A stretch of DNA of 8,060 nucleotides from the IMG/VR virus record IMGVR_UViG_2711768034_000011; one strand, 5' to 3'. The DNA is from a virus. Its lineage: Duplodnaviria > Heunggongvirae > Uroviricota > Caudoviricetes. Below are positions 1-8,060 of this stretch, piece by piece. Below the pieces are notes generated by a model, which did no database searches, was not told where the DNA came from, and worked only from the letters and a program-made list of their open reading frames with translations. Within the stretch, counting starts at the first letter, position 1; each line of letters opens with the position of its first letter. Both the position numbers and the translations under genes were made by a program.

Positions 1-1254
1 ATGCTGGAACAAATGGGCATTGCCGCGAAGCAAGCCTCGTATAAATTAGCGCAACTCTCCAGCCGCGAAAAAAATCGCGTGCTGGAAAAAATCGCCGATG
101 AACTGGAAGCACAAAGCGAAATCATCCTCAACGCTAACGCCCAGGATGTTGCTGACGCGCGAGCCAATGGCCTTAGCGAAGCGATGCTTGACCGTCTGGC
201 ACTGACGCCCGCACGGCTGAAAGGCATTGCCGACGATGTACGTCAGGTGTGCAACCTCGCCGATCCGGTGGGGCAGGTAATCGATGGCGGCGTACTGGAC
301 AGCGGCCTGCGTCTTGAGCGTCGTCGCGTACCGCTGGGGGTTATTGGCGTGATTTATGAAGCGCGCCCGAACGTGACGGTTGATGTCGCTTCGCTGTGCC
401 TGAAAACCGGTAATGCGGTGATCCTGCGCGGTGGCAAAGAAACGTGTCGCACTAACGCTGCAACGGTGGCGGTGATTCAGGACGCCCTGAAATCCTGCGG
501 CTTACCGGCGGGTGCCGTGCAGGCGATTGATAATCCTGACCGTGCGCTGGTCAGTGAAATGCTGCGTATGGATAAATACATCGACATGCTGATCCCGCGT
601 GGTGGCGCTGGTTTGCATAAACTGTGCCGTGAACAGTCGACAATCCCGGTGATCACAGGTGGTATAGGCGTATGCCATATTTACGTTGATGAAAGTGTAG
701 AGATCGCTGAAGCATTAAAAGTGATCGTCAACGCGAAAACTCAGCGTCCGAGCACATGTAATACGGTTGAAACGTTGCTGGTGAATAAAAACATCGCCGA
801 TAGCTTCCTGCCCGCATTAAGCAAACAAATGGCGGAAAGCGGCGTGACATTACACGCAGATGCAGCTGCACTGGCGCAGTTGCAGGCAGGCCCTGCGAAG
901 GTGGTTGCTGTTAAAGCCGAAGAGTATGACGATGAGTTTCTGTCATTAGATTTGAACGTCAAAATCGTCAGCGATCTTGACGATGCCATCGCCCATATTC
1001 GTGAACACGGCACACAACACTCCGATGCGATCCTGACCCGCGATATGCGCAACGCCCAGCGTTTTGTTAACGAAGTGGATTCGTCCGCTGTTTACGTTAA
1101 CGCCTCTACGCGTTTTACCGACGGCGGCCAGTTTGGTCTGGGTGCGGAAGTGGCGGTAAGCACACAAAAACTCCACGCGCGTGGCCCAATGGGGCTGGAA
1201 GCACTGACCACTTACAAGTGGATCGGCATTGGTGATTACACCATTCGTGCGTAA
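1..1254 (+). CDS. proA: Gamma-glutamyl phosphate reductase (glutamate-5-semialdehyde dehydrogenase), complete 417 aa
   Basis: 417-aa ORF starting at window position 1; I recognise the sequence as enterobacterial ProA; location immediately upstream of thrW matches the known proBA-thrW arrangement (established knowledge). Confidence 0.95.
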
Positions 1255-1368
1255 ATAAAACCGGGTGATGCAAAAGTAGCCATTTGATTCACAAGGCCAT
1301 TGACGCATCGCCCGGTTAGTTTTAACCTTGTCCACCGTGATTCACGTTCGTGAACATGTCCTTTCAGG

Positions 1369-1444
1369 GCCGATATAGCTCAGTTGGTAGAGCAGCGCAT
1401 TCGTAATGCGAAGGTCGTAGGTTCGACTCCTATTATCGGCACCA
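1369..1444 (+). tRNA. thrW: tRNA-Thr (anticodon CGU), 76 nt with encoded CCA end
   Basis: Sequence GCCGATATAGCTCAGTTGGTAGAGCAGCGCATTCGTAATGCGAAGGTCGTAGGTTCGACTCCTATTATCGGCACCA; 7-bp acceptor stem GCCGATA/TATCGGC, D-loop and GTTCGACTCC T-arm motifs, anticodon CGT in the anticodon loop. A known phage integration target. Confidence 0.93.
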
Positions 1445-1458
1445 TTTAAATCAATAAG

Positions 1459-2622
1459 TTACACATCATTAGTACCTTCCTTATTTTTTGACTGGGACAA
1501 ATTTGGGACCGATGGGTTCAGGATCGAGTCTATTTGCCGTGCGTGTTCGGTAAGGTGATTAGGTGCGAGGTGAGCATATCGACGAACCATTTCGATAGAC
1601 TCCCAGCCTCCCATTTCCTGTAACACTGACAACGGGACACCGGCTTGAACCAGCCAACTTGCCCAGGTGTGTCTCAAGTCATGAAATCTGAAATCATCAA
1701 TACCAGCTCGTCTCAGCGCCGCTTTCCAGGCTGTGTTTGCGTCATACCGCATCTTCCTGACTGTTGGCGCTTTCGTTCCGTCTGGTTTGGTACAGCTTTC
1801 CTTGTACACAAATACCCAACGGTGATGATTCCCGATTTGTTTTTTCAATACGCGACATGCAGTATCATTCAGCGCAACGCCAATTGCGCGGTTTGATTTA
1901 CTCTCTTCCGGGTTTATCCATGCCACCCGGCGCTGCATGTCTATTTGTTGCCATTCAAGGTTGATGATGTTCGAGCGTCTTAAGCCTGTTGCCAGTGCAA
2001 ATTCAACAACAGACTTTAATGGCTCCGGACATTCATCAATCAGCCTTTGTGCTTCATGGGGCTCCAGCCAGCGGATCCGTTTATTCTTTGGTTGAGGCAC
2101 TTTAATAATTGGTGCCTTATCCAGCATTTTCCATTCACGCTCTGCGGCTCTTAGTAGGGCCTTTATAAATGAAAGATGCGTAGCCTTCGTTGCAACGGAC
2201 GCTGGTTTTGGCGTGTATTCTGGAACAGGTTTCCCTTTTTTTCTACATGCTTCTGCCCTGAGTTTCCAGTTTTCCTCATGACGCCGGTTCGTCATTTTCT
2301 GCATTGCTGAATAAATTTTTGATTCAGTAATGTCTCTTAGTTGCATTCCTGCGAAATGTTGAAGCCAGAATCCGATCCGGCTTTTGTCATCGTCCAGTGA
2401 TTTTTTATGTGCTTTCTCTTCGAGCCACCTGATACACGCCTCCTCGAACGTCATATCAGGTATTTCACCAAGTTTGCTGACCCGCCATGCTTCAGCCTTT
2501 AGCTTGTCATGGAGCTCTGTCGCCTGCCTTTTGTCCTTTGTTCCAAGAGACTGTTTAAATCTTTTACCGTTCGGCAATGTGAAACTGGCGTACCATATTT
2601 CACCTCTGCGGAAGAGTGACAT
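1459..2622 (-). CDS. int: Phage integrase, tyrosine recombinase, P22-type (387 aa)
   Basis: 387-aa ORF ending 14 nt from the tRNA 3' end; N-terminus [22 protein letters not shown] and C-terminal [13 protein letters not shown]...VRRYAHL catalytic boxes; SD-like AGAGGAAAG upstream of the ATG at 2622. P22 integrates at thrW (established knowledge). Confidence 0.93.
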
Positions 2623-2849
2623 TTTCTTTCCTCTGTTATGCCATCACCCGCGCTCACCTGGACAGTATGCAGCGGAGACTGAAGCGCCGCAATGCAGGCT
2701 TGTCGTGTTGTGAGGTAAGGAGATTTTAGTTTAGTGGGGTCTTTGCGTGTTGCCTGTAGGCGGCCTGTTCGTATCCAGTTGGTAGCGGTAGGTCTGGATA
2801 TCTTGAGAAACTGACAGGCCTCATCGAGTGTGAGGCTGTATGATTCCAT
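2499..2849 (-). CDS. xis: Excisionase / AlpA-like helix-turn-helix DNA-binding protein (116 aa from ATG at 2849; the listed ORF extends to a GTG at 2879)
   Basis: HTH-like segment [26 protein letters not shown]; AGAGGT SD 4 nt before the ATG at 2849; sits immediately upstream of int on the same strand. The 3' end overlaps the int 5' end by 124 nt in another frame; the 116-aa size matches my recollection of P22 Xis. Confidence 0.7.
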
Positions 2850-3099
2850 GGTTACCTCTGCTTTTTGAACGCATGTCACGTAACTTCTTAATGTGTTCTG
2901 CCGTTTCGATCTCTTCTGCTATCCGATCTGCATCAGCTTTATTCACAGGTTCAAAGTCATGATTAAAGCGGAACATGCTGGCGATACATGTTCCGCCTTT
3001 TCGGATGTAGTGAACTTTGTTGTGGGTAGAACGCAGGATTTTGCAGGGAGTGCCGTGGTGGTCGACGTACCAGGTGTTAGGAAAAATGATTCTGAACAT
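2821..3099 (-). CDS. Hypothetical phage protein, 92 aa, function unknown
   Basis: ORF with SD GAGGTG 5 nt upstream of the ATG at 3099; co-directional and tightly packed with neighbours (29-nt overlap with the xis start). I do not recognise the family. Confidence 0.6.
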   Translation of the reverse strand: MFRIIFPNTWYVDHHGTPCKILRSTHNKVHYIRKGGTCIASMFRFNHDFEPVNKADADRIAEEIETAEHIKKLRDMRSKSRGNHGIIQPHTR

Positions 3100-3146
3100 T
3101 TTTACACCTCAGTTGGACGATGTTGAAATTTGCTGCTTTGAGGCCA

Positions 3147-3365
3147 TCACAATCCCCATTGTTTGTTCTTAAGTTCGATCTCCTCCTGGCAACTTGCACA
3201 AGTCCGACAACCCTGAACGGCCAGGCGTCTTCGTTCATCTATGGGATCGCCACACTCACAACAATGAGTGGCAGATATAACCTGGTGGTTCAGACGACGC
3301 ATTTTTATTGCTGTATTGCGCTGTAATTCTTCGATTTCTGATGCTGAATCAATGATGTCTGCCAT
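3147..3365 (-). CDS. TraR/DksA-family C4 zinc-finger protein (72 aa), putative RNA polymerase-binding regulator
   Basis: Spacing C-x2-C-x17-C-x2-C (CCECGDPIDERRRLAVQGCRTCASC) typical of the DksA/TraR zinc finger; TraR-like proteins are common in lambdoid early-left operons (established knowledge). Confidence 0.8.
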   Translation of the reverse strand: MADIIDSASEIEELQRNTAIKMRRLNHQVISATHCCECGDPIDERRRLAVQGCRTCASCQEEIELKNKQWGL

Positions 3366-3371
3366 CTTCCA

Positions 3372-3467
3372 TTAATCCCTGAATTGTTGGTTAATACGCT
3401 TGAGGGTGAATGCGAATAATAAAAAAGGAGCCTGTAGCTCCCTGATGATTTTGCTTTTCATGTTCAT
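3372..3467 (-). CDS. Putative small ORF, 31 aa (MNMKSKIIRELQAPFLLFAFTLKRINQQFRD), not in the supplied ORF track
   Basis: First ATG overlaps the stop of the upstream 72-aa gene as ATGA; AAGGAG lies 8 nt before the in-frame second ATG; its TAA stop is 6 nt before the TraR-like ATG. It encloses a hairpin plus U-tract, so it may instead be a terminator or attenuator. Confidence 0.3.
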   Translation of the reverse strand: MNMKSKIIRELQAPFLLFAFTLKRINQQFRD

Positions 3468-3679
3468 CGCTCCTTAAAGACGCCGTTTAACATGCCGATC
3501 GCCAGGCTTAAATGAGTCGGTGTGAATCCCATCAGCGTTACCGTTTCGCGGTGCTTCTTCAGTACGCTACGGCAAATGTCATCGACGTTTTTATCCGGAA
3601 ACTGCTGTCTGGCTTTTTTGATTTCAGAATTAGCCTGACGGGCTATGCTGCGAAGGGCGTTTTCCTGCTGAGGTGTCAT
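3464..3679 (-). CDS. Hypothetical phage protein, 72 aa from ATG at 3679 (listed ORF extends to a TTG at 3778)
   Basis: ATG at 3679 overlaps the stop of the upstream 27-aa ORF (ATGA); its stop overlaps the start of the downstream small ORF (ATGA). Product MTPQQENALRSIARQANSEIKKARQQF... is not recognised. Confidence 0.55.
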   Translation of the reverse strand: MTPQQENALRSIARQANSEIKKARQQFPDKNVDDICRSVLKKHRETVTLMGFTPTHLSLAIGMLNGVFKER

Positions 3680-3759
3680 TGAACAAGTCCCATGTCGGCA
3701 AGCATAAGCACACAGAATATGAAGCCCGCTGCCAGAAAAATGCATTCCGTGGTTGTCAT
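3676..3759 (-). CDS. Putative small hydrophobic peptide, 27 aa (MTTTECIFLAAGFIFCVLMLADMGLVQ), not in the supplied ORF track
   Basis: Strong SD GGGAGG (3764-3769) 4 nt upstream of the ATG at 3759; ATG overlaps the methyltransferase stop (ATGA) and its TGA overlaps the next gene ATG (ATGA); hydrophobic core long enough for one membrane helix. Confidence 0.4.
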   Translation of the reverse strand: MTTTECIFLAAGFIFCVLMLADMGLVQ

Positions 3760-4313
3760 GCAGCCTCCCGACGGGCAAGAATCCTTGAGCCGAACGCCAT
3801 CAACTCTCCACGATCAACGGTCGTAAAGTGGCAGTGTGTACGGGGGTATGGGTGCCAGATAATGAGCATCGAGCCTTTATTATTTCCACTGACGGGTTTC
3901 TCAGTGAGTGGGTTAATAAATGCCAGTCGTCCTGCCGTGATGAATCTGACCTCACTGGCGGTTTGTATCGCTTCATGAAACCATCCGACAGATGTGTCAG
4001 CAGGCAATAACATTACACATCCCACACTACTGAATTTGTTTTCAGTGGCTGCCTTTTTCACAAAAGGGGAAATATTGCTGTATGGTGGATTCAACCAGAC
4101 ATAACCAGAGGCATATCCCATTGCTTCAGGCCATGAAGTGGTTAATGTGTTCTGCTCCTGTGAGATAAAAAGCCGACATAGTCGGTTTTTTTCGCTGGCT
4201 GCAGCATCAAGTTGAAAAACGAACTCTGCATTAAGCGCAGCAAAAATCTCTGGTGGTGTGCGCCAGCTGTCGCGATGTTCGGCAGGAGTATTGCTTCCGG
4301 TGAAATCAGTCAT
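3756..4313 (-). CDS. Phage-type DNA N6-adenine methyltransferase (185 aa)
   Basis: NPPY catalytic motif (WLNPPYSN) and N-terminal W-x-TPPEIF...LDAAAS pattern typical of the phage N-6-adenine methyltransferase family; no adjacent restriction endonuclease gene. Confidence 0.85.
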   Translation of the reverse strand: MTDFTGSNTPAEHRDSWRTPPEIFAALNAEFVFQLDAAASEKNRLCRLFISQEQNTLTTSWPEAMGYASGYVWLNPPYSNISPFVKKAATENKFSSVGCVMLLPADTSVGWFHEAIQTASEVRFITAGRLAFINPLTEKPVSGNNKGSMLIIWHPYPRTHCHFTTVDRGELMAFGSRILARREAA

Positions 4314-4369
4314 ACAGCCCCCCGTTTATTATTTATCTCCTCAGCCAGCCGCTGTGCTTTCAGTGGATT

Positions 4370-4403
4370 TCTGATAACAGAAAGGCCGGGAAATACCCAG
4401 CCT
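4370..4403 (-). terminator. Candidate intrinsic terminator between exo and the methyltransferase gene
   Basis: On the minus-strand transcript: AGGCUGGG-UAUUU-CCCGGCCU (8-bp stem including one G-U pair) followed by UUUCUGUUAUC, located 62 nt downstream of the exo stop. Confidence 0.4.
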
Positions 4404-6304: not shown

Positions 6305-6448
6305 TTAGTGAATGCTTTTGCTTGATCTCAGTTTCAGCATTAATATACATTTTTTATAAGCGTCGACGGCTTCACGAAACATCTTTTCATCGCCAATAAA
6401 AGTGGCGATAGTGAATTTAGTCTGGATAGCCATAAGTGTTTGATCCAT
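6305..6448 (-). CDS. kil: Lambda-type Kil (host cell-division inhibitor), 47 aa
   Basis: [33 protein letters not shown]...[10 protein letters not shown] matches lambda Kil as recalled; AGGAG SD upstream. The listed 89-aa ORF 6305..6574 is this gene with a spurious upstream extension. Confidence 0.85.
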
Positions 6449-6581
6449 TTTTTGGGACTCCTGGCTGATTAAGTATGTCGATAAGGCGTTTCCATCCGTC
6501 ACGTAATTTACGGGTGATTCGTTCAAGTAAAGATTCGGAAGGGCAGCCAGCAACAGGCCACCCTGCAATGGCATATTGCAT
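6417..6581 (-). CDS. cIII: Lambda-type CIII (FtsH/HflB inhibitor), 54 aa
   Basis: Below the ORF-track length cutoff. Manual translation of the minus strand from the ATG at 6581 gives MQYAIAGWPVAGCP... and ends ...[15 protein letters not shown] with TAA at 6417-6419; AAGGAG SD 7 nt upstream; 32-nt overlap with kil as in lambda. Confidence 0.85.
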   Translation of the reverse strand: MQYAIAGWPVAGCPSESLLERITRKLRDGWKRLIDILNQPGVPKNGSNTYGYPD

Positions 6582-6653
6582 GGTGTGCTCCTTATTTATA
6601 CATAACGAAAAACGCCTCGAGTGAAGCGTTATTGGTATGCGGTAACGCCGCGC

Positions 6654-7022
6654 TCAGGCGGCTTTGATAGTCATATCATCTGAATCAAATATTCCTGATG
6701 TATCGATATCGGTAATTCTTATTCCTTCGCTACCATCCATTGTAGGCCATCCTTCCTGACCATTTCCATCATTCCAGTCGAACTCACACACAACACCATA
6801 TGCATTTAAGTCGCTTGAAATTGCTATAAGCAGAGCATGTTGCGCCAGCATGATTAATACAGCATTTAATACAGAGCCGTGTTTATTGAGTCGGTATTCA
6901 GAGTCTGACCAGAAATTATTAATCTTGTGAAGTTTTTCCTCTGTCATTAAGTCATGGTCGATTTCAATTTCTATTGATGCTTTCCAGTCGTAATCAATGA
7001 TGTATTTTTTGATGTTTGACAT
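6654..7022 (-). CDS. ea10: Lambda-type Ea10 (Ssb-like early protein), 122 aa
   Basis: MSNIKKYIIDYDWKASIEIEIDHD... matches lambda Ea10 as recalled. Confidence 0.9.
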   Translation of the reverse strand: MSNIKKYIIDYDWKASIEIEIDHDLMTEEKLHKINNFWSDSEYRLNKHGSVLNAVLIMLAQHALLIAISSDLNAYGVVCEFDWNDGNGQEGWPTMDGSEGIRITDIDTSGIFDSDDMTIKAA

Positions 7023-7181: not shown

Positions 7182-7211
7182 GCGTGAAAATGAAACCCGC
7201 CTGAGCGGGTT
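7182..7211 (-). terminator. Candidate intrinsic terminator overlapping the stop of the AT-rich ORF
   Basis: Stem AACCCGC / GCGGGTT (7 bp, loop CTGA) at 7194-7211; on the minus transcript followed by UCAUUUUCACGC; on the plus strand followed by a T5 run 8 nt away, so possibly bidirectional. Confidence 0.35.
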
Positions 7212-7763
7212 ATGACCACTTTTTGTTTGGATTTCGTTGGTGAGCGTGGTTTACAGGATTATTTGATATACCCCATAACTCTGACTCGCTTATCTCTACA
7301 CGAGAGAAAGACCTGCTTTCTTTCAGTTCTTTTATAAACCTAGAACCTACGATGACATCTATTGTCCCAGAAAGTTCTTGTAAAAGATCTTTGTTTTTTC
7401 TGAGGAAGAAAACATCTTCTTTATATTTAATTTTTACATAGAATTTATTCTGTATTTTTAATATATCAAAGCATGGCAGATATCTATATCCCTCATGCTT
7501 TCGCCACTGCTTAACAATTATAACATCTCTTTCATTTACTGCATTAATCAGCCCAAGACCAAGTATAGGTATGAATATTCTATTGTCTGCCGAAAGCGTA
7601 CAATTATCACCACCAGGCAAATATGTATAAATCATGTCGGAATTTTTATACGCATCAACGAATGCACGTAAGAATCGTACATATTTTTGCCATCCGTTTA
7701 TACCAAATTTACCATATAAGTATTCTTTATTTGTTAGAAGAAAACTATTTGTATCAGGAGCCT
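7210..7763 (-). pseudogene. AT-rich orphan ORF of unknown function, probably 5'-truncated by IS1 (at least 183 codons of open frame; first ATG at 7635 gives 141 aa)
   Basis: Markedly lower GC than the flanking lambda-like genes; the frame stays open for 42 sense codons upstream of the ATG at 7635 right up to the IS1 junction, with no in-frame ATG/GTG/TTG and no SD before 7635. Confidence 0.5.
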
Positions 7764-8060
7764 GGTAATGACTCCAACTTATTGATAGTGTTTTATGTTC
7801 AGATAATGCCCGATGACTTTGTCATGCAGCTCCACCGATTTTGAGAACGACAGCGACTTCCGTCCCAGCCGTGCCAGGTGCTGCCTCAGATTCAGGTTAT
7901 GCCGCTCAATTCGCTGCGTATATCGCTTGCTGATTACGTGCAGCTTTCCCTTCAGGCGGGATTCATACAGCGGCCAGCCATCCGTCATCCATATCACCAC
8001 GTCAAAGGGTGACAGCAGGCTCATAAGACGCCCCAGCGTCGCCATAGTGCGCTCACCGAA
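7764..8060 (-). mobile_element. IS1, partial (right inverted-repeat end, 297 of about 768 bp; continues beyond the window)
   Basis: Begins with the IS1 terminal inverted repeat GGTAATGACTCCAACTTATTGAT at 7764 and contains the insB 3' coding region on the minus strand. Confidence 0.95.
7779..8060 (-). CDS. insB: IS1 transposase InsB, 3' portion (5' end lies beyond the window)
   Basis: Translation ...[93 protein letters not shown] matches IS1 InsB as recalled. Confidence 0.9.

What the first reader, a model, noticed from the sequence alone, without database searches (positions are those of the whole stretch)
2821..3099. 92-aa unknown protein between the TraR-like gene and xis
Good SD and an in-operon position, but the product ([92 protein letters not shown]) is unrecognised. 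The His/Cys-rich N-terminal half could bind metal or nucleic acid; the C-terminal part is charged and helical. Genes here are often host-takeover or anti-defence factors.
Basis: partly seen in the sequence, partly recalled or inferred. Interest (0 to 1): 0.4.

Follow-up and report, generated by a model that had tools for sequence, protein, structure and literature searches.

The report
RgdR-family (DUF4222) small prophage protein
The 92-codon gene is real, but it belongs to a recognised and very common family of small prophage proteins (DUF4222), whose one studied member, RgdR, changes host gene expression; it is an ordinary member, and what it does in lambda-like phages is still untested.

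Summary
The ORF at 2821-3099 (minus strand, 92 aa, GAGGTG Shine-Dalgarno 5 nt upstream) is a real gene under purifying selection. [quoted passage not shown] It is not unrecognised. It matches Pfam DUF4222 (E 2.6e-18) and phrog_285 (E 4e-37), RefSeq names it "DUF4222 domain-containing protein", and its core occurs in 2348 of 5426 complete E. coli genomes. RgdR (ECs1581), the only studied family member, is a prophage/PICI regulator that activates LEE1 and type III secretion and represses motility. It falls in the same Pfam and PHROG families and shares 24% identity with the target. AlphaFold models of both show a small Tudor/SH3-like beta-barrel followed by a C-terminal helix. The metal-binding idea fails: there are only two Cys, both replaced in orthologues, and most His positions vary. 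Residues 78-92 are not conserved; they come from reading into the neighbouring P22-type xis module. This copy also carries a private R36G change and sits in an IS1-interrupted prophage. The most likely function is an RgdR-like, non-enzymatic modulator of host transcription that acts by binding a host partner. That is inferred, not shown. It is a new member of a known kind, of modest interest.

The parts
2821..3099 (-). CDS of the 92-aa DUF4222 / phrog_285 protein (stop codon 2821-2823)
   Evidence: ORF list. Pfam PF13973 E 2.6e-18 and phrog_285 E 4.4e-37. dN/dS 0.08-0.37. RefSeq annotates the near-identical WP_000488407.1 as DUF4222.
3105..3110 (-). Shine-Dalgarno GAGGTG, 5 nt before the ATG
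   Evidence: Read directly from the sequence.
2941..3093 (-). Residues 3-53: the DUF4222 domain, predicted to be a small Tudor/SH3-like beta-barrel
2863..2940 (-). Residues 54-79: conserved C-terminal helix, acidic in its first half and basic at the end (...EEIETAEHIKKLR.MR)
   Evidence: AlphaFold helix 54-82. I60, H69, L73 and R74 are invariant within the target clade. phrog_285 covers residues 1-82. RgdR has an equivalent helix at 78-96.
2821..2870 (-). Module junction (about 2870, codon 77) and the non-conserved tail (residues 78-92). The tail is encoded by the ribosome-binding site and first codons of the neighbouring P22-type xis, read in another frame.
   Evidence: DNA identity with phage 21 stops at alignment column ~286, which is window position ~2870. 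Many E. coli genomes match only from query position 171-174 onward. Most orthologues end at residue 79. Mean pLDDT is 56-58 for the residue blocks 81-92.
2499..2849 (-). xis (116 aa, P22-type excisionase); its start overlaps the target's 3' end by 29 nt
   Evidence: phrog_2907 E 1.5e-51 and HTH_17. Same extent as the RefSeq CDS in AR_0061.
3147..3365 (-). TraR / lambda Orf73-like C4 zinc-finger gene, the upstream neighbour
   Evidence: PF01258 and phrog_54. A homologue lies upstream on the same strand in 16 of 18 diverse loci.
3415..3443 (-). Terminator-like hairpin with a T-run between the orf61-like gene and TraR. TraR, the target, xis and int all lie downstream of it.
   Evidence: Consensus scan only. 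Function was not tested.
1459..2622 (-). Tyrosine integrase next to tRNA-Thr (1369-1444) and proA: the prophage end

Best explanation
This is a genuine gene of the exo-xis ('early-left accessory') region of a lambdoid prophage. It encodes a member of the DUF4222 / phrog_285 family, the family of RgdR. The protein has no enzymatic or metal-binding signature. It is a ~50-residue Tudor/SH3-like beta-barrel followed by a ~25-residue helix with a basic end, and it is basic overall (pI 9.75). It is most likely made from the antiterminated pL transcript together with the TraR/Orf73 homologue, xis and int. It would then act stoichiometrically by binding a host macromolecule of the transcription apparatus or nucleoid, and so shift host gene expression. 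RgdR does this in EHEC (LEE1 up, motility down, Congo-red binding up, only weak non-specific DNA binding). Shown: the gene is real and under selection, its family membership, the predicted fold, its position and the modular junctions. Inferred: the time of expression, the binding mode and the effect on host transcription. The tail (residues 78-92) is a by-product of the junction with the xis module and is probably dispensable. This copy carries R36G at an otherwise invariably basic position and may be impaired.
Confidence: 0.45

Rival explanations
1. It is an accessory or architectural factor for site-specific recombination. The beta-barrel binds DNA or Int/Xis and tunes excision or integration.
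For: It lies directly next to xis/int in every lambdoid locus examined. SH3-like barrels bind DNA in TnsB and the HIV integrase C-terminal domain, and both appear among the Foldseek hits. RgdR binds DNA weakly and non-specifically.
Against: The same gene is joined to several unrelated int/xis modules (P22-type here, phage 21-type, others with 24-32% Int identity), and the recombination junction lies inside its own 3' end. A factor co-adapted to one recombinase would be expected to travel with it. In PICI elements the homologue sits just upstream of the primase, not next to int. The lambda reference genome did not appear among the phage matches.
Confidence: 0.12
2. It is an anti-defence or other host-takeover inhibitor that blocks a specific host protein unrelated to transcription, such as a restriction or abortive-infection component.
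For: It is a small protein in an accessory region that also carries Gam, Kil, CIII and a Dam methyltransferase.
Against: There was no match in PADLOC, which holds defence proteins rather than anti-defence proteins and so is only a weak test. Nothing was found in the literature under DUF4222, PF13973 or phrog_285. The gene is very widespread and little diversified in E. coli (2315 of 2350 matching records at >= 95% nucleotide identity), which would be unusual for a fast-turnover counter-defence gene (the turnover expectation is my own knowledge). The studied homologue has regulatory phenotypes instead.
Confidence: 0.12
3. It is a zinc- or other metal-binding nucleic-acid-binding protein that uses the N-terminal His and Cys residues.
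For: The window allele has 8 His and 2 Cys, most of them in the N-terminal half.
Against: There is no conserved ligand set. C19 becomes V (7 of 34 in the target clade, 24 of 24 in the RgdR clade) and C38 becomes N (7 of 34). H14, H26, H30 and H47 are variable and H15 becomes Y in the RgdR clade. No zinc-finger family matched. The model folds as an all-beta barrel with a hydrophobic core.
Confidence: 0.03
4. It is a chance ORF or a decaying pseudogene with no function.
For: This copy has a private R36G change, and the prophage is interrupted by IS1.
Against: Orthologues are intact in all 16 loci examined with low dN/dS. All 80 IMG/VR copies inspected are full-length. The Shine-Dalgarno sequence is strong.
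Confidence: 0.02

Closest known systems
RgdR (ECs1581) of E. coli O157:H7 O-island 51 / CP-933C, a PICI-type element (Flockhart et al. 2012, PMC3378721)
   Same: Same Pfam family (DUF4222) and same PHROG (285). Similar size (92 vs 99 aa) and basic pI (9.75 vs 10.09). Same predicted layout of beta-barrel plus C-terminal helix with a basic end. Both are encoded in an early operon of a mobile element.
   Different: Only 24% identity. The target lacks the RGD motif (PNT instead), the K35 equivalent and the ~20-residue disordered N-terminal extension. [quoted passage not shown] No phenotype has been measured.
Lambda exo-xis region proteins (Orf60a, Orf63, Orf61, Orf73, Ea22, Ea8.5, Orf55; reviewed in PMC8614690)
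   Same: Same genomic compartment and presumably the same pL-driven early expression. In this window Orf60a (DUF1317), an Orf61-like protein (phrog_303; named orf61-like in the phage 21 record) and Orf73/TraR homologues flank it. The target occupies the slot next to xis that Ea22, Ea8.5 and Orf55 fill in lambda.
   Different: No match to any solved structure by sequence, and the review reports a solved Ea8.5 structure (PDB 2M7A). Direct comparison with the lambda Ea8.5, Ea22 and Orf55 sequences was not made. Its fold differs from the folds described for them: homeodomain/zinc-finger hybrid for Ea8.5, T7 Gp2-like for Orf55. That review does not cover DUF4222.
C-terminal Tudor domains of the UvrD/PcrA helicases and the CarD/Mfd RNA-polymerase-interacting domains
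   Different: Sequence identity is 4-13%, with no profile match. The fold is shared by hundreds of unrelated SH3, Tudor, KOW and Sm-like proteins. Binding to RNA polymerase is untested.

Membership tests
Pfam DUF4222 (PF13973) / PHROG 285 | Profile score above the curated gathering threshold | tested here: met
   65.7 bits against a cut-off of 27, covering residues 3-53 and profile positions 1-53 of 53. phrog_285 E 4.4e-37 over residues 1-82 and profile positions 1-82 of 83.
Pfam DUF4222 (PF13973) / PHROG 285 | Family-wide invariant core residues (D13, I21, Y31, G35, F45, F49 in target numbering) | tested here: met
   All are present in the target and invariant across 58 sequences from both clades.
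Pfam DUF4222 (PF13973) / PHROG 285 | Shared architecture: small beta-barrel followed by a C-terminal helix | tested here: met
   AlphaFold models of the target (pLDDT 79.7) and of an RgdR-clade protein (pLDDT 76.0) show the same order of elements. These are predictions, not solved structures.
RgdR orthologue group (as defined in PMC3378721) | RGD tripeptide at RgdR residues 20-22, needed for activation of type III secretion in natural variants | tested here: not met
   It aligns with P7-N8-T9 in the target. A sister sub-clade has QRGQ at this position.
RgdR orthologue group (as defined in PMC3378721) | More than 77% similarity over the full 99 aa, and a location in a P4-like/PICI element upstream of the primase | tested here: not met
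   24% identity over 75 residues. The target lies between TraR and xis in a lambdoid prophage, whereas ECs_1581 directly precedes the primase ECs_1582.
RgdR orthologue group (as defined in PMC3378721) | Activates the LEE1 promoter and represses motility when expressed | not testable with these tools
   Requires reporter and motility assays.
Bacterial RNA-polymerase-binding Tudor-like domains (UvrD/PcrA C-terminal domain, CarD and Mfd interacting domains) | Tudor-like five-stranded barrel fold | tested here: met
Bacterial RNA-polymerase-binding Tudor-like domains (UvrD/PcrA C-terminal domain, CarD and Mfd interacting domains) | Detectable sequence homology and binding to the RNA polymerase beta subunit | tested here: not met
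   Homology: 4-13% identity in the structural alignments, no PDB sequence hit better than E 0.4 and no Pfam hit. Binding cannot be tested with these tools.
Zinc-finger / metal-binding small proteins | A conserved set of three or four Cys/His ligands | tested here: not met
   Column counts show that C19, C38 and all N-terminal His positions are replaceable.
Lambdoid exo-xis region gene set | Located between exo and xis on the pL-transcribed strand | tested here: met
   Gene order on the minus strand is exo, DUF1317, dam, orf61-like, TraR, target, xis, int.

The most novel reading that the evidence does not exclude
Probability: 0.15. Interest if true: 0.6.

Novelty: new member of a known kind. 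Interest (0 to 1): 0.28.

Why it matters
The gene sits in the exo-xis 'dark matter' of lambdoid phages, a region known to influence the lysis-lysogeny decision and prophage induction (PMC8614690). Close copies are carried by about 43% of complete E. coli genomes. Its only studied relative affects EHEC virulence gene expression and colonisation (PMC3378721). Finding the binding partner of this family would explain a very common prophage gene. It could also show how resident prophages and PICIs tune host transcription. This copy adds nothing unusual beyond a module-junction tail and a probably damaging R36G change.

Tried and rejected
1. A sequence search of PDB chains found nothing better than E 0.4.
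2. NCBIfam and PADLOC gave no hit for the target.
3. Literature searches for PF13973, phrog_285, WP_000488407 and ybl17 found nothing relevant. Searches for ECs1581, c1493 and related tags found no mechanistic work after 2012.
4. A single-sequence phmmer search of 1.84 billion representatives gave only 40 hits with E-value up to 0.001, mostly close relatives and fragments. The one multi-repeat hit (P0100, 343 aa, E 9e-7) is a different repeat protein and was not pursued.
5. The search for related loci with the mixed-clade alignment failed because no stretch was conserved enough. It was rerun with the target clade only.
6. The afdb50 fold library was unavailable. BFVD returned only uncharacterised small phage barrels and DUF1653 proteins.
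7. P0106, a 167-aa TraR-DUF4222 fusion, was considered as Rosetta-stone evidence. It was rejected because the TraR part is frameshifted near its C-terminus and the protein reads through the 47-nt spacer, so it is most likely a mutation or an assembly error. Folding it as a pseudo-complex was dropped because the alignment was unsound.
8. Other fusions are recombination or deletion junctions, not domain architectures: P0017 (orf61-like + DUF4222), P0080 (Ea22 N-terminus + DUF4222 C-terminus) and P0105 (methyltransferase fragment + DUF4222).
9. The C-terminal helix is not significantly amphipathic by hydrophobic moment, so no coiled-coil claim is made.
10. Antisense ORFs across the gene (for example 2893-3126 on the plus strand, 77 aa) were dismissed, because conservation and dN/dS fit the minus-strand frame.

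Full report
**Observation.** The window starts with proA (1-1254, plus strand) and tRNA-Thr (1369-1444). A lambdoid prophage arm follows, read on the minus strand:
- int (1459-2622)
- xis (2499-2849)
- the target ORF (2821-3099)
- a TraR/DksA-type zinc-finger gene (3147-3365)
- an orf61-like gene (phrog_303)
- a Dam methyltransferase
- DUF1317 (the lambda orf60a type)
- exo, bet, gam, kil and cIII

The ORF has exactly the quoted translation. GAGGTG lies 5 nt before the ATG. The ORF starts 47 nt after the TraR stop and overlaps the xis start by 29 nt. No minus-strand promoter-like site was found in 1300-4400. A terminator-like hairpin lies upstream of TraR at 3443-3425. A region 99.9% identical in E. 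coli AR_0061 is annotated by RefSeq with the same gene order at thrW.

**Is it a gene?** Yes. Orthologues in 16 loci from phages 21 and HK639, a Klebsiella phage and 13 enterobacterial genomes or MAGs (Citrobacter, Lelliottia, Enterobacter, Pseudocitrobacter, Kluyvera) are all intact. They align without gaps over the first 77 codons. dN/dS against the window copy is 0.08-0.37 for 15 of them (dS was not computable for the Klebsiella copy), and the median over all pairs is 0.25. The 235-nt core is found in 2348 of 5426 complete E. coli genomes. In 2324 of these the match covers at least 80% of the core, and the listed hits are annotated 'DUF4222 domain-containing protein'. IMG/VR holds 538 contigs that encode a relative.

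**What family is it?** The product is not unrecognised. It matches Pfam DUF4222 (PF13973; 65.7 bits against a cut-off of 27; residues 3-53) and PHROG 285 (E 4e-37; residues 1-82). A review of EHEC island regulators states that RgdR (ECs1581 of O-island 51) contains a DUF4222 domain (PMC10877973).

I fetched Sakai ECs_1581 (L001:4305-4601). Its computed mass (11.70 kDa) and pI (10.09) match the values in the original paper. It scores DUF4222 E 2e-23 and phrog_285 E 2e-31. BLASTP against the target gives 24% identity over 75 residues, E 4e-6.

According to Flockhart et al. (PMC3378721), RgdR:
- activates the LEE1 promoter, and through Ler activates type III secretion;
- represses motility;
- increases Congo-red binding;
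- binds DNA only weakly and non-specifically;
- is found with relatives only on prophage-like elements.

Fillol-Salom et al. note that it is encoded by all the E. coli PICIs they analysed (PMC6092414). I found no later mechanistic work.

**Structure.** An AlphaFold model built on a 58-sequence alignment spanning both clades has mean pLDDT 79.7, and about 90 for residues 11-50. It shows strands 10-12, 18-24, 28-33 and 36-41, a short helix 42-48, a bridge, and then a long helix 54-82. An RgdR-clade protein modelled the same way shows the same order of elements after a disordered 20-residue N-terminus.

**Metal binding.** The window allele has 8 His and 2 Cys. Column counts show there is no conserved ligand set:
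- C19 is V in 7 of 34 target-clade sequences and in all 24 RgdR-clade sequences.
- C38 is N in 7 of 34 target-clade sequences.
- H14, H26, H30 and H47 vary, and H15 is Y in the RgdR clade.
- Only H69, in the helix, is invariant within the target clade.

The family-wide invariant residues are D13, I21, Y31, G35, F45 and F49, mostly hydrophobic or turn-type positions (reading them as core or turn is my inference). The metal-binding suggestion is not supported.

**Modularity.** Most orthologues are 79 aa and end ...KKLRAxRAA. DNA identity between the window and phage 21 runs from the start codon to about window position 2870 (codon 77) and then stops. Many E. coli genomes share only the DUF4222-TraR part, with a different xis. 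Residues 78-92 of the window protein are encoded by the ribosome-binding site and first nine codons of the P22-type xis, read in another frame. They have low pLDDT and are not conserved, so the tail is a by-product of a mosaic junction.

The upstream boundary is also at the gene edge: the sequence before the Shine-Dalgarno differs in phage 21. The gene is combined with several different integrase modules. That argues against a role tied to one particular recombinase.

**Neighbourhood.** In 16 of 18 diverse loci a TraR homologue lies upstream on the same strand, from directly adjacent to about 1.5 kb away. The DUF4222 gene lies on the int-proximal side, with 0.1-2.7 kb (sometimes other small genes) before xis or int.

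TraR homologues, including lambda Orf73, bind RNA polymerase and reprogram host transcription (PMC9239242). However, TraR occurs without DUF4222 in many genomes. The lambda reference genome gave no match in the phage search. RgdR's PICI context has no annotated TraR. The linkage may therefore be simple synteny within the exo-xis region. The published modelling survey of exo-xis proteins does not include this family (PMC8614690).

**Mechanism.** The best-supported reading is an RgdR-like, non-enzymatic small protein that is expressed early from pL and binds a host macromolecule to shift host gene expression (confidence about 0.45). Family membership, fold, selection and position are shown. Timing, partner and effect are inferred.

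The RGD motif and K35, which matter in RgdR, are absent from the target (P7-N8-T9 and L22). It should therefore not be called an RgdR orthologue.

A more specific and more novel version holds that the barrel docks on RNA polymerase as the UvrD and CarD Tudor domains do, or alternatively that it antagonises H-NS/Ler. From my own knowledge of dksA/ppGpp and hns phenotypes, either would produce RgdR's pattern of LEE up, motility down and curli up. I rate this version at about 0.15.

The rivals are less likely, for the reasons given in their entries: a recombination accessory factor (0.12), an anti-defence inhibitor (0.12), a metal-binding protein (0.03) and a non-functional ORF (0.02).

**This particular copy.** It differs from the common 92-aa allele (80 of 80 IMG/VR copies inspected, and AR_0061) by a single R36G change. 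That position is R or H in every other target-clade sequence sampled. The prophage is interrupted by IS1 within the gene at the N position. No complete E. coli genome in the collection holds the whole window contiguously. The same IS1 junction elsewhere marks a prophage remnant. Expression and activity of this copy are therefore uncertain.

**Verdict.** Novelty: new member of a known kind. Interest: about 0.28.

Noticed in passing
window 2992-2994 (codon 36 of the target): The window's copy has Gly36 (GGA) where the common allele has Arg (AGA). All 80 IMG/VR copies inspected and strain AR_0061 have R. All 33 other target-clade sequences sampled have R or H at this position. This may be a damaging private substitution.
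   Followed up: yes
window 7210-7635 (-) and 7779-8060: The 141-aa ORF matches only the C-terminal half (positions 149-289) of phrog_12139, with a Nun-like C-terminal end (phrog_5632, E 1.6e-5). It is followed by an IS1 transposase fragment that runs to the window edge. The gene at the N position of the prophage therefore appears truncated by IS1. In strain S1-INA-02-B the same junction lies in a prophage remnant at argU next to cusS. No complete E. coli genome in the collection holds the whole window contiguously (best 88%).
   Followed up: partly
window 3415-3443 (-): A strong terminator-like hairpin (8-bp stem, then TTTTTATTATT) lies between the orf61-like gene and the TraR gene. TraR, the DUF4222 gene, xis and int would need read-through or antitermination to be expressed from pL.
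   Followed up: no
window 6536-6594 (-) and 6417-6581 (-): Rfam finds the lambda cIII thermoregulator element (88.5 bits) at the start of a 54-aa cIII-like ORF. A Kil ORF (6305-6574) overlaps it.
   Followed up: no
window 6654-7022 (-): A 122-aa DUF2528 / phrog_646 protein of unknown function lies between cIII and the truncated N-position gene. It is another uncharacterised accessory gene.
   Followed up: no
window 3756-4313 (-): A phage Dam-type N6-adenine methyltransferase (PF05869, E 2e-56) is inserted in the exo-xis region between the DUF1317 (orf60a-like) and orf61-like genes. It is present in some related loci and absent in others.
   Followed up: partly
L004 (phage HK639) 3001-3234: The DUF4222 reading frame is intact in HK639 (79 aa) but is not annotated. 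The deposited record instead calls an overlapping 150-aa ORF (HK639_32) in another frame, which is probably a mis-annotation.
   Followed up: partly
proteins P0106, P0017, P0080, P0105: Database entries fuse DUF4222 or parts of it to TraR, an orf61-like protein, an Ea22 N-terminus or a methyltransferase fragment. They look like frameshift, deletion or recombination products at module junctions rather than true domain architectures.
   Followed up: partly
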